Source: an uncultured Bdellovibrionales bacterium (GTDB lineage Bacteria; Patescibacteriota; Minisyncoccia; Moranbacterales; UBA1568). Taken from it: a stretch of DNA of 41,035 nt. Below are positions 19,385 to 19,816 of the stretch, piece by piece. Numbering within the stretch: the first letter of the stretch is position 1; each line of letters opens with the position of its first letter. The notes beneath the pieces are model-generated. The model saw nothing but the letters and a program-made list of their open reading frames with translations, made no database searches and was not told the origin of the DNA. Location of the stretch: contig CAZLQC010000003.1 of the NCBI GenBank assembly GCA_964561695.1, positions 1 through 41,035 on the forward strand, given 5' to 3'. Both the position numbers and the translations under genes were made by a program.

Positions 19385-19816
19385 ATAACGAACAACCTGC
19401 AACAGGCAACCAAGAACGATTATGAACAAGTTTCGTTTTCTAGACTGGAAAGTCTATCAGGATGCACAGAATTTGTTCATAGAAATATCAAAAGTTGTTG
19501 CAAGTCTTAGTCAGGAGTCACGTTATGTAATAGGTAGTCAGTTGAGCAGAGCTTCGTTATCAGTAGTCTTAAACATCGCGTAAGGAAGTGGTAAAGCCTC
19601 AGACAAAGAGTTGAATCGTTTCTTCGAGATAGCTCTCGGCTCTCTCTACGAGACACTGCTGCATTAGATACATTGGAAAAGATGGGAACTATTACGATAG
19701 AAGAAAGAGAACATCTTTTCGCTAAAGTAGAAGTAATTAGCTCTCAAATCGGCGGATTCAAGAAGAAGTTGAAGTAAAAGTTGTAAGTTGTTTGTTGTAG
19801 GTTATAAGTTACTTAT
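19385..19816 (+). repeat. IVS-like cassette: long inverted repeat (19392-19417 / 19780-19805, extendable to about 37 bp) enclosing a decayed four-helix-bundle gene
   Basis: ACAACCTGCAACAGGCAACCAAGAAC against GTTGTAAGTTGTTTGTTGTAGGTTAT gives 19 WC pairs, 3 GU pairs and 4 mismatches out of 26. Fills the whole atpE-stop to atpF-start interval. Confidence 0.75.
19422..19777 (+). pseudogene. four-helix-bundle protein (23S rRNA intervening-sequence protein / Avd-like family), disrupted
   Basis: MNKFRFLDWKVYQDAQNLF...SQLSRASLSVVLNIA*GSGKASDKELNRFFEIALGSLYET. In-frame TAA at 19581-19583 and TAG at 19665-19667. The C-terminal part (ALDTLEKMGTITIEEREHLFAKVEVISSQIGGFKKKLK) continues in the -1 frame from 19661. 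Confidence 0.8.

What the first reader, a model, noticed from the sequence alone, without database searches (positions are those of the whole stretch)
19385..19816. An rRNA-IVS-like cassette inside the ATP synthase operon: a long stem enclosing a decayed four-helix-bundle gene
The whole atpE-stop to atpF-start interval is one element. A 26-nt core inverted repeat (19392-19417 and 19780-19805) gives 19 WC and 3 GU pairs, and is extendable to about 37 bp, reaching from the atpE UAA to the base before the atpF AUG. It encloses an ORF of the four-helix-bundle / 23S rRNA intervening-sequence-protein family, to which DGR Avd proteins are related. Hallmarks present are F..L.VY..A..L, SQL.RAS.S...NIAEG and F..IA.GSL.E. 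The ORF is dead, with TAA at 19581, a -1 frameshift near 19660 and TAG at 19665. In rRNA operons such genes sit in intervening sequences whose flanking stems are excised by RNase III. The same architecture here sits in an mRNA between two essential cistrons. That implies either a mobile IVS-type element that landed outside rRNA, or an RNase III processing site splitting the atpBE and atpFHAG transcripts.
Basis: partly seen in the sequence, partly recalled or inferred. Interest (0 to 1): 0.7.

Follow-up and report, generated by a model that had tools for sequence, protein, structure and literature searches.

The report
rRNA-type intervening cassette in atp operon
The 431-base gap between two ATP-synthase genes is a hairpin-flanked mini-gene cassette of the kind known from ribosomal-RNA "intervening sequences"; relatives keep it intact at the same spot, and the same cassette type sits in many co-transcribed spacers (rRNA, tRNA, protein operons) of CPR bacteria.

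Summary
Window 19385-19815, the whole atpE-stop to atpF-start spacer, is one element. It has a 35-nt left arm of five heptads (xAACnnn), a PF05635/TIGR02436 four-helix-bundle ORF (repaired translation E=7e-26), and a 35-nt inverted right arm (GTTxnnn x5).

The ORF has exactly two lesions, E54->TAA and a 1-nt deletion. Two independent assemblies carry the same lesions.

New findings:
- Relatives carry an intact gene at the same atpE|atpF site, even where AtpF is only 48-52% identical. dN/dS is 0.05-0.10, so the decay here is very recent.
- Sister strains with 98-100% identical flanks have an unrelated 137-nt hairpin, swapped exactly at the gene borders.
- A second, ORF-less hairpin with homologous arms lies in the atpB leader.
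- Across about 100 homologous loci the same design recurs: about five 7-nt repeats per arm, inverted. These loci lie in the 16S rRNA helix-6 loop, in tRNA spacers, and in operon spacers (groES|groEL, atpD|atpC, pilB|pilC).
- The Coxiella 23S IVS, which RNase III cuts in vitro, shares the ORF family, size, stem and heptamers.

RNase III excision from the atp mRNA is therefore the best-supported mechanism, but it is untested. Covariation and strand-asymmetry tests were weak. I rate this a new variant of a known kind.

The parts
19385..19815 (+). Whole cassette (431 nt): the entire atpE-atpF spacer.
   Evidence: The boundaries are set by comparison with L015/L016/L100/L101. Their flanks are 98-100% identical, and an unrelated 137-nt sequence lies between exactly these points. 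There is no promoter-like or terminator-like site inside on the + strand.
19386..19420 (+). Left arm: five heptads, TAACGAA CAACCTG CAACAGG CAACCAA GAACGAT.
   Evidence: (AAC N4)x4 occurs only at the four arms in the 41-kb window: 8 hits against 0.01 expected. Unit count is 5. The arm is homologous to the arms of L001, L011 and L098.
19422..19777 (+). Four-helix-bundle (PF05635/TIGR02436) pseudogene. TAA at 19581-19583 (E54stop); 1-nt deletion near 19657; resulting TAG at 19665-19667.
   Evidence: Best intact homologs are P0001 (88% identity) and P0002 (87%).
19780..19814 (+). Right arm: five heptads, GTTGTAA GTTGTTT GTTGTAG GTTATAA GTTACTT, inverted relative to the left arm.
19394..19410 (+). 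5' strand of the 17-bp uninterrupted core helix; it pairs with 19787-19803.
   Evidence: Duplexfold and whole-element MFE.
18206..18310 (+). Second, ORF-less hairpin with homologous arms. Left arm 18206-18240 (TAACCGA CAACTCA CAACTCA CAACCCA CAACAAA); 35-nt loop; right arm 18276-18310. It lies in the atpB 5' leader and ends 3 nt before the GTG start at 18314.
   Evidence: It is absent from L001 and L011 and present in L100.
19157..19384 (+). atpE (c subunit), the upstream host cistron.
   Evidence: PF00137.
19817..20305 (+). atpF (b subunit), the downstream host cistron.
   Evidence: PF00430.
18164..18192 (+). Promoter-like site TTGACT-17-TACAAT upstream of the atp operon, conserved in L001 and L011.
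   Evidence: This is a consensus match only.
19080..19108 (+). Promoter-like site TGGACA-17-TATAAT in the atpB-atpE spacer.
   Evidence: 11 of 12 matches. This is a consensus match only.

Best explanation
The atpE-atpF spacer is an IVS-type four-helix-bundle cassette: [five 7-nt repeats] - [118-codon IVP gene] - [five inverted 7-nt repeats].

Shown:
- It is a member of a large cassette class that occupies co-transcribed spacers in rRNA, tRNA clusters and protein operons.
- It has been kept at this exact site since before lineages with about 50% AtpF identity split, with the protein under strong purifying selection.
- In the window's strain the gene was knocked out very recently by two lesions.
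- In sister strains the whole cassette is swapped for an unrelated hairpin.

Inferred:
- The cassette is transcribed as part of the atp mRNA, because it contains no internal promoter or terminator.
- Its arms fold into a roughly 35-bp interrupted duplex that brings the atpE stop and the atpF start together.
- As in the Coxiella 23S rRNA IVS, which has the same architecture, RNase III cuts this duplex. That would release the cassette RNA and split the transcript into atpB-atpE and atpF-atpC parts, which makes the insertion harmless to the host operon.
- The arms persist after gene death either because decay is too recent or because the hairpin is what the operon needs.
For: - Family and anatomy.
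- Same site with an intact gene: L001/L002-L010 (22 contigs), L011, L098 and L105. These IVPs form one clade in an NJ tree.
- Selection: dN/dS is 0.10 (L001-L011) and 0.05-0.06 (window against each). Private changes in the window are 22 synonymous and 2 non-synonymous, one of which is the stop.
- Discreteness: the exact-boundary swap in L015/L016/L100/L101/L102.
- Class-wide design in 80 genome loci and 21 metagenome loci. Period 7 is the best period for nearly all arms. The modal count is five units per arm (35 of 83 upstream, 27 of 83 downstream; background 1-3). The downstream unit is the reverse complement of the upstream unit in 18 of 32 clean cases, against 18% in controls. Arm sequence co-diverges with the protein (Mantel rho 0.40, 0 of 1000 permutations).
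- Transcribed-spacer niche: the 16S rRNA helix-6 loop (a 405-nt insert at Rfam SSU positions about 79-83 in L057; seven loci); tRNA-Thr|IVP|tRNA-Tyr in six genomes and other tRNA spacers; groES|groEL, pilB|pilC, gap|rpiB, PBP|dprA and atpD|atpC. 61 of 71 scorable upstream ORFs are co-directional.
- Mechanistic precedent: the Coxiella IVS (S23p ORF, 428-444 nt, 28-bp terminal stem, GACAGAT heptamers) is cut by RNase III in vitro, with ends mapped inside the stem (PMC4990558).
- The terminal stem appears in the MFE fold of all four tested atp cassettes and of the empty hairpin (19-28 arm-arm pairs).
- No promoter-like or terminator-like site lies inside the cassette on the + strand.
Against: - No transcript data exist, so RNase III cleavage here rests on analogy.
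- The in-register arm alignment of five homologous arm pairs shows no excess covariation. 73.7% of cells pair, against 74.7% in shuffles. Pairing is carried by the invariant xAAC/GTTx anchors, and only 2 pairs show double changes.
- In L001 the stem is a chain of 4-6-bp helices with internal loops (-19 kcal/mol, z=-2.1) rather than a long duplex.
- The sense strand is only slightly more stable than the antisense strand across 84 loci (51:32, p=0.04). Among the atp cassettes the result is mixed.
- No RNase III gene is present in the 41-kb window (motif scan), and the rest of the genome was not available.
- How the cassette moves is unknown.
Confidence: 0.6

Rival explanations
1. The arms are a DNA-level feature. 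They are the terminal inverted repeats or recombination substrates of a small non-autonomous mobile element, and the RNA stem is a by-product with no processing role.
For: - The cassette is a discrete, swappable unit.
- Arms travel and co-diverge with the ORF.
- Related IVPs sit in different spacers: atpD|atpC, x|PrgI and 16S interleaved with mRNA sites.
- ORF-less arm pairs are common.
- There is no covariation and little strand asymmetry.
Against: - There is no transposase, integrase or reverse transcriptase in or next to the cassette; its neighbours are atpE and atpF.
- No target-site duplication is visible at 19384/19385 or 19815/19816.
- Copies in the window are only about 75-80% alike.
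- There is long vertical residence at one site.
- Only one weak hit was found in 2.9 million viral contigs.
Confidence: 0.25
2. The heptad arrays are binding sites for the IVP protein itself. A pentameric four-helix-bundle ring would bind five evenly spaced xAAC (or GUUx) anchors on single-stranded RNA or DNA, much as TRAP binds spaced GAG triplets. Binding would control stem formation, processing, translation or mobility of its own cassette.
For: - The modal count is five units per arm.
- Anchors are invariant, while the 3-4-nt spacers vary and do not co-vary.
- Unit sequence co-diverges with the protein clade, including a period-8 pair of sister proteins, L080 and L091.
- There is strong purifying selection on a protein with no known function.
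Against: - No binding data exist.
- Unit numbers range from 3 to at least 10, and Coxiella has 3-4.
- Co-divergence is also expected from simple co-inheritance.
- The cassette and the empty hairpin persist here without a functional IVP.
- The TRAP analogy is from memory.
Confidence: 0.2
3. The hairpin is a host-beneficial intercistronic element, a 3' stabiliser of the atpB-atpE message or an attenuator. It would set the high c-subunit to low b-subunit ratio. The IVP gene is a passenger in its loop.
For: - Both alleles of this spacer fold into a long terminal hairpin: the IVP cassette and the 137-nt alternative (z=-2.3).
- The alternative shows pair-restoring changes between L015 and L102.
- The hairpin starts right after the atpE stop codon.
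- The stem outlives the gene here.
- The genome lacks Shine-Dalgarno motifs (1 of 32 genes), so start-site structure may matter.
Against: - The same cassette sits in spacers with no such stoichiometric need: tRNA clusters, the 16S loop and PBP|dprA.
- The IVP protein is itself under strong selection.
- No expression data exist.
Confidence: 0.25
4. Chance complementarity in an ancestral unstructured spacer that carries a dead ORF.
For: A/T-rich spacers give many weak inverted repeats.
Against: - The arm pattern gives 8 hits against 0.01 expected.
- The duplex has z=-6.5.
- The architecture is conserved in about 100 loci.
Confidence: 0.01

Closest known systems
Coxiella burnetii 23S rRNA intervening sequence (IVS) with the S23p ORF (Warrier et al. 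2016, PMC4990558)
   Same: Same ORF family (PF05635). Same size (428-444 nt against 431 nt). Terminal inverted repeats close the element in a stem of about 28 bp. Tandem heptamers run up to the ORF's ATG. The ORF tends to decay while the RNA element persists.
   Different: The host transcript is 23S rRNA helix 45, not an mRNA spacer between two essential cistrons. Coxiella has 3-4 GACAGAT units rather than 5 xAACnnn. RNase III cleavage is shown there and not here. There the protein is thought not to be expressed; here relatives show dN/dS of 0.05-0.10.
Insertion sequences in CPR 16S/23S rRNA genes that encode 23S_rRNA_IVP (PMC11270868)
   Same: Same bacterial radiation and same protein family. 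I found seven such 16S cases with the same heptad arms among the homologs.
   Different: That survey covered rRNA genes only. It does not describe the arms or non-rRNA sites.
23S_rRNA_IVP genes reported inside cas operons, e.g. cmr3|IVP|cmr2 (PMC3936711; also listed in PMC10910872)
   Same: A small IVP gene is wedged between two co-directional genes of an operon.
   Different: Those papers read it as a functional CRISPR association. No arms or cassette structure were reported. The present data suggest a general operon-spacer habit instead.
DGR accessory protein Avd (bAvd, PF22296)
   Same: Distant full-length similarity: E=0.057 here and 5.6e-6 for P0009, both below the cut-off. Many close homologs carry a precomputed PF22296 hit.
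   Different: No reverse transcriptase or template/variable repeats lie next to it. Its neighbours are atpE and atpF.
Short tandemly repeated heptanucleotide (STRR) sequences of cyanobacteria, and REP-type intercistronic hairpins (from memory)
   Same: Intergenic tandem 7-nt repeats; intercistronic stem-loops inside operons.
   Different: Here the repeats come as two inverted arrays of about five units that enclose a specific gene family. I tested no link to STRR or REP.

Membership tests
PF05635 / TIGR02436 four-helix-bundle protein (23S rRNA IVP) | Profile match above the curated cut-off | tested here: met
   PF05635: 90.9 bits against a cut-off of 33.8. TIGR02436: 90.7 bits against 24. Both on the repaired translation. 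The unrepaired N-terminal 53 aa score 37.8 bits.
PF05635 / TIGR02436 four-helix-bundle protein (23S rRNA IVP) | Conserved G..R...S...N..E motif (SQLsRAslSvvLNIAEG) | tested here: met
   The motif is present, but its final E codon is now TAA.
PF05635 / TIGR02436 four-helix-bundle protein (23S rRNA IVP) | Intact, translatable gene | tested here: not met
   There is a nonsense codon at 19581 and a 1-nt deletion near 19657, identical in L013 and L014. The gene is intact in L001, L011, L098 and L105.
PF05635 / TIGR02436 four-helix-bundle protein (23S rRNA IVP) | Pentamer of four-helix bundles | not testable with these tools
   There is only a sequence link to 2GSC (E=3.3e-8, five chains). No structure was predicted.
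rRNA intervening sequence (IVS) of the Coxiella/Leptospira type | Sits in a helix of an rRNA gene | tested here: not met
   It lies between atpE and atpF. Rfam finds no rRNA in the window. Sister cassettes do sit in the 16S helix-6 loop.
rRNA intervening sequence (IVS) of the Coxiella/Leptospira type | Terminal inverted repeats form a stem that closes the element | tested here: met
   25-28 arm-arm pairs, -30 kcal/mol, z=-6.5.
rRNA intervening sequence (IVS) of the Coxiella/Leptospira type | Tandem heptamers between the element's 5' end and the ORF start | tested here: met
   Five units at 19386-19420. Coxiella has 3-4.
rRNA intervening sequence (IVS) of the Coxiella/Leptospira type | Encodes an S23p/IVP ORF; total size about 430-440 nt | tested here: met
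   431 nt with a PF05635 ORF.
rRNA intervening sequence (IVS) of the Coxiella/Leptospira type | Excised from the precursor by RNase III without re-ligation | not testable with these tools
   There are no transcript data and no rnc gene within the window.
MITE / IS-type transposable element | Transposase, or multiple near-identical copies, plus a target-site duplication | tested here: not met
   There is no transposase. The only ORF is the four-helix bundle. The two arm sets in the window are about 75-80% alike. No direct repeat is seen at the borders.
Diversity-generating retroelement (Avd component) | bAvd profile above cut-off, with an adjacent reverse transcriptase and TR/VR repeats | tested here: not met
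   PF22296 scores 14.3 bits against a cut-off of 40. The neighbours are atp genes.
Intercistronic mRNA stabiliser or processing hairpin | Stable stem-loop directly 3' of the upstream cistron, inside one transcription unit | tested here: met
   The stem starts 1-2 nt after the atpE UAA. There is no internal promoter or terminator.
Intercistronic mRNA stabiliser or processing hairpin | Differential abundance or stability of the upstream and downstream segments | not testable with these tools
   This needs RNA data.

The most novel reading that the evidence does not exclude
IVP cassettes are a previously unrecognised, widespread class of self-contained elements specialised for living in transcribed spacers of any kind: rRNA helices, tRNA clusters and essential protein operons such as atp and groESL. 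Their conserved five-by-seven-nucleotide arms are the cognate binding array of the pentameric IVP protein. On this reading the protein-arm pair forms an autoregulated processing or mobility module, and 'rRNA IVS', 'CRISPR-associated IVP' and the ORF-less heptad hairpins of CPR genomes are all faces of one system.
Probability: 0.2. Interest if true: 0.85.

Novelty: new variant of a known kind. Interest (0 to 1): 0.62.

Why it matters
IVS elements have been known since about 1990 as oddities that fragment rRNA, and their conserved ORF has no known function. Four points follow from the present data.

- The same cassette lives between essential protein-coding cistrons (atpE|atpF, atpD|atpC, groES|groEL) and between tRNAs, not only in rRNA.
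- The cassette has a precise, conserved 5 x 7-nt arm design.
- The protein is under strong purifying selection at a fixed operon site across deep divergence.
- Natural allele series exist: intact gene, freshly dead gene, ORF-less hairpin and an unrelated hairpin at the same site.

Together these make the function of the IVP/Avd-like family and the role of the arms directly testable. The results also warn that 'CRISPR-associated' or 'operon-associated' IVP genes may be spacer residents rather than pathway components. They further suggest that operon mRNAs in small-genome CPR bacteria may be routinely cut at such hairpins.

Tried and rejected
- Covariation in the stem: an in-register alignment of five homologous arm pairs gave no excess over shuffles. 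I do not claim covariation support.
- Strand asymmetry: the sense arm duplex against the antisense arm duplex in 84 loci gave only a weak bias (51:32, p=0.04), and the atp cassettes were mixed.
- Rfam: nothing at gathering threshold except a tRNA. At E<=1 there were only noise hits (MIR168, Ysr283).
- Other copies in the window: tblastn with the repaired protein found none. The arm search found only the atpB-leader hairpin.
- Phage vector: a scan of 2.9 million viral contigs gave one distant (29%) hit. I rejected phage carriage for this subfamily.
- Target-site duplication: none is visible at the borders. No true empty site exists for comparison, because the alternative allele is another element.
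- Imported recombination tract around the cassette: SNPs between the window and L100 are patchy genome-wide but not concentrated at the cassette. Only 19345 and 19381 differ nearby. The direction of the swap therefore stays unresolved.
- Organism name: cluster look-ups gave no names. CPR/Patescibacteria is inferred from the homolog list and from 80% AtpD identity to a Moraniibacteriota MAG.
- Ralph & McClelland 1993 (PMC47033) could not be read.
- This genome's own rRNA genes could not be examined, because only the 41-kb contig and short related contigs were reachable.
- RNase III signature motif: none in the window.
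Full report
**1. What is in the sequence**

atpE (c subunit, 19157-19384) and atpF (b subunit, 19817-20305) are separated by 432 nt. 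An ORF starts at ATG 19422 and reads MNKFRFLDWKVYQDAQ...SVVLNIA. It then meets TAA at 19581-19583. The same frame continues as GSGKASDKELNRFFEIALGSLYET. After a 1-nt deletion near 19657, the next frame carries the C-terminal ...EKMGTITIEEREHLFAKVEVISSQIGGFKKKLK and stops at TAA 19775-19777.

The repaired 118-aa protein matches PF05635 (E=7.1e-26) and TIGR02436 (E=6.3e-26). It gives a weak full-length match to bAvd (E=0.057) and a sequence hit to PDB 2GSC / XCC0516.

The arms fold on each other. Bases 19394-19410 pair with 19787-19803 over 17 uninterrupted bp, 3 of them G-U. Flanking 4-bp blocks bring the total to 25-28 pairs, reaching from the UAA of atpE to a few bases before the AUG of atpF. 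The duplex energy is -30 kcal/mol, z=-6.5 against shuffled arms, and only 0.15% of equally spaced genomic segment pairs do as well.

**2.

- Left arm (19386-19420): TAACGAA CAACCTG CAACAGG CAACCAA GAACGAT.
- Right arm (19780-19814): GTTGTAA GTTGTTT GTTGTAG GTTATAA GTTACTT.
- Each arm is five heptads, and the two arrays are inverted relative to each other.

The pattern (AAC N4)x4 occurs at only four places in the 41-kb window, giving 8 overlapping hits against 0.01 expected. These places are the two arms of this cassette and the two arms of a second hairpin at 18206-18310.

The second hairpin has homologous arms of five units each and only a 35-nt loop with no ORF. It lies in the atpB leader, between a conserved promoter-like site (18164-18192) and the GTG start at 18314. 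Relatives L001 and L011 lack it, while the 98%-identical L100 has it.

**3. Relatives**

Same site, intact gene:
- The best database homologs are P0001 (88% identity) and P0002 (87%). Both are intact 118-aa genes at the same position, atpE|IVP|atpF, in contigs about 80% and 76% identical to the window. P0001 was seen on 22 contigs from many samples.
- More distant cases at the same site are L098 (IVP 63% identical, AtpF 52%) and L105 (IVP 60%, AtpF 48%).
- In a neighbour-joining tree built without bootstrap, the window, L001, L011 and L098 proteins form one clade (L105 was recovered later and was not in the tree), so the cassette has been inherited vertically at this site for a long time.

Selection:
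- dN/dS is 0.10 between L001 and L011, and 0.05-0.06 between the window and each of them.
- The window's private codon changes are 22 synonymous and 2 non-synonymous, and one of the two is the stop.
- The gene was therefore functional until very recently.
- L013 and L014, from independent read sets, are 100% identical to the window including both lesions, so the pseudogene is real.

**4. A natural swap**

L015, L016, L100 and L101 have flanks 98-100% identical to the window. In L015 the last 409 nt of atpE carry 2 mismatches and the first 504 nt from atpF carry none. L102 and L103 are 88-90% identical. Where the contig covers the spacer (all but L103), these carry an unrelated 137-nt sequence in place of the cassette.

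Homology stops at 19384 and resumes at 19816, so 19385-19815 behaves as one replaceable unit. The alternative spacer also folds into a long terminal hairpin (z=-2.3) and shows pair-restoring differences between L015 and L102.

SNPs between the window and L100 are patchy, which indicates mosaic recombination, but they are not concentrated next to the cassette. I cannot say which allele replaced which. Both alleles look old, and the polymorphism is probably shuffled by homologous recombination.

**5. The cassette is one of many**

A scan of one genome per species with an alignment of IVP homologs returned 80 loci. These are mostly Patescibacteria/CPR, with some Bacteroidota, Elusimicrobia and others.

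Arm design across loci:
- Nearly all loci have tandem repeats on both sides of the gene, and period 7 is the best period for the great majority.
- The modal number of units is five per arm (35 of 83 upstream, 27 of 83 downstream), against 1-3 in background segments.
- The downstream unit is the reverse complement of the upstream unit in 18 of 32 clean cases, against 18% for random locus pairs.
- Unit sequences differ between lineages (CAACnnn, TAACAGT, CAATCAA, GACTAAC and others) and co-diverge with the protein (Mantel rho 0.40, 0 of 1000 permutations).
- Two sister proteins, L080 and L091, both have period-8 arms. Bacteroidota copies have the reverse arm polarity.

Contexts:
- Seven loci lie inside 16S rRNA genes. 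In L057 a 405-nt insert replaces the loop at Rfam SSU positions about 79-83. From memory this is the helix-6 hairpin.
- Six genomes have tRNA-Thr|IVP|tRNA-Tyr, and several other cassettes lie beside tRNAs, tmRNA or SRP RNA.
- Many lie between co-directional protein genes, with the arms filling the gaps: pilB|pilC, gap|rpiB, groES|groEL, PrgI|x, x|VirB4-like, PBP|dprA, SIS|nucleotidyl-transferase, DUF4015|scpA and atpD|atpC.
- 61 of 71 scorable upstream ORFs are co-directional with the IVP gene. This count rests on mechanical ORF calling.
- Stop-to-start distances in these operon cases are about 395-480 nt, and the window's is 432 nt.
- ORF-less heptad hairpins also occur elsewhere in these loci.
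- Pseudogenised copies are common, for example at least six of the 21 metagenome loci.

**6. Comparison with what is known**

The Coxiella burnetii 23S IVS is 428-444 nt and encodes S23p, a member of the same Pfam family. It is closed by a 28-bp terminal stem and has 3-4 tandem GACAGAT heptamers running up to the ATG. RNase III cuts it in vitro, and the in vivo ends map inside the stem. The authors noted that the ORF decays while the RNA element is kept (PMC4990558).

IVP ORFs in CPR 16S and 23S insertions have been catalogued (PMC11270868). IVP genes wedged inside cas operons have been reported as CRISPR-associated (PMC3936711, PMC10910872).

Only eight papers in the searchable library mention the family at all. 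None describes the 5 x 7-nt arm design or cassettes in tRNA or mRNA spacers. This search covers open-access text only.

**7. Mechanism**

Shown:
- The cassette is a discrete unit of arms plus gene.
- Its niche is co-transcribed spacers.
- The protein is selected.
- The arms can pair.

Inferred:
- The cassette has no promoter-like or terminator-like site on the + strand, so atpF-atpC expression needs read-through across it.
- The stem would bring the atpE stop and the atpF start together.
- Identical cassettes sit at rRNA helix tips, where removal is the classical IVS fate, so RNase III cleavage of the stem in the atp mRNA is the most economical model.

I give this model about 0.6 overall. The identity and history parts are near-certain. 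The RNase III step is about even odds.

Cautions:
- Across the five homologous arm pairs, pairing is carried by the invariant xAAC/GTTx anchors. The variable triplets mostly do not pair and do not co-vary.
- The L001 stem is a chain of short helices.
- The sense-strand advantage is weak.

These features fit protein-binding arrays at least as well as a plain dsRNA substrate. Combined with the modal five units and the five-chain XCC0516 structure, they motivate the pentamer-heptad hypothesis (probability about 0.2).

A host-benefit reading, in which the hairpin sets atpE:atpF expression, is kept alive by two facts. Both alleles of this spacer are hairpins, and the genome lacks Shine-Dalgarno motifs (1 of 32 genes).

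**8. Verdict**

The finding is real and more interesting than a single dead gene, but the element type has a clear known relative. I rate it a new variant of a known kind: an IVS-type cassette resident in an mRNA operon, and part of a broad, apparently undescribed spacer-dwelling class. Interest is 0.62.

Noticed in passing
window 8597-8726, 25548-25680, 26166-26297: Three copies of a different hairpin element of about 130 nt. The 23-nt terminal inverted repeats are ATGCCCAGTGGGACAATTTCAAG ... CTTGAAATAGTACCACTGGGTAT. Each copy fills the spacer before a gene (tgt, a response-regulator gene, leuS), and its last bases are the ATG of that gene. The fold has z=-5.4. The copies differ by compensatory changes in the stem. 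There is no Rfam match.
   Followed up: partly
window 23117-23635: A 519-nt lineage-specific insert lies between atpG and atpD. It holds a 116-aa ORF on the opposite strand (23196-23546) with no Pfam match. L001 and L102 have a 38-nt gap here, while L100 has the insert. This is a third variable spacer in the same atp operon.
   Followed up: partly
L015 410-546; L100 2119-2255; L102 173-311: The alternative allele of the atpE-atpF spacer is an unrelated 137-nt element. It folds into a long terminal hairpin (GTAATCATTTTATTTTG ... CCAAAATAAAAAGATTAC) and is conserved with pair-restoring changes at 88-90% flank identity.
   Followed up: partly
window, all gene starts: Only 1 of 32 genes has a Shine-Dalgarno-like motif within 20 nt of the start codon, so translation initiation in this organism is essentially SD-independent.
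   Followed up: partly
window 26296-29175: The leucyl-tRNA synthetase carries a NUDIX domain (residues 390-509) inserted after the editing domain.
   Followed up: no
window 17267-26719 versus L100: SNPs between 98%-identical strains cluster in patches (17382-17697, 20387-21010, 26267-26766) separated by near-identical stretches. This is a mosaic typical of frequent homologous recombination.
   Followed up: partly
window 19117-19149 and 19801-19833: A 33-nt inverted repeat, 76% complementary, links the atpE leader to the atpF start region. It may be chance in A/T-rich sequence.
   Followed up: no
L042 2803-2880; L067 5504-5575; L018 4628-4748; L024 4041-4148: ORF-less pairs of inverted heptad arrays ('empty' hairpins) are common in CPR intergenic regions away from any IVP gene.
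   Followed up: partly
L080, L091; L078, L083, L090, L093: The sister IVPs L080 and L091 have period-8 arms rather than period-7. Bacteroidota copies have reversed arm polarity, with G/T-rich repeats upstream and A/C-rich repeats downstream.
   Followed up: no
L017 1570-3640: In a Moraniibacteriota MAG, an IVP cassette 62% identical to the window's sits in a different spacer of the atp operon, atpD|IVP|atpC.
   Followed up: yes
L066 3426-3633; L081 4541-5001 and 6207-6320: Group I and group II intron matches lie near IVP cassettes in CPR rRNA or adjacent regions.
   Followed up: no
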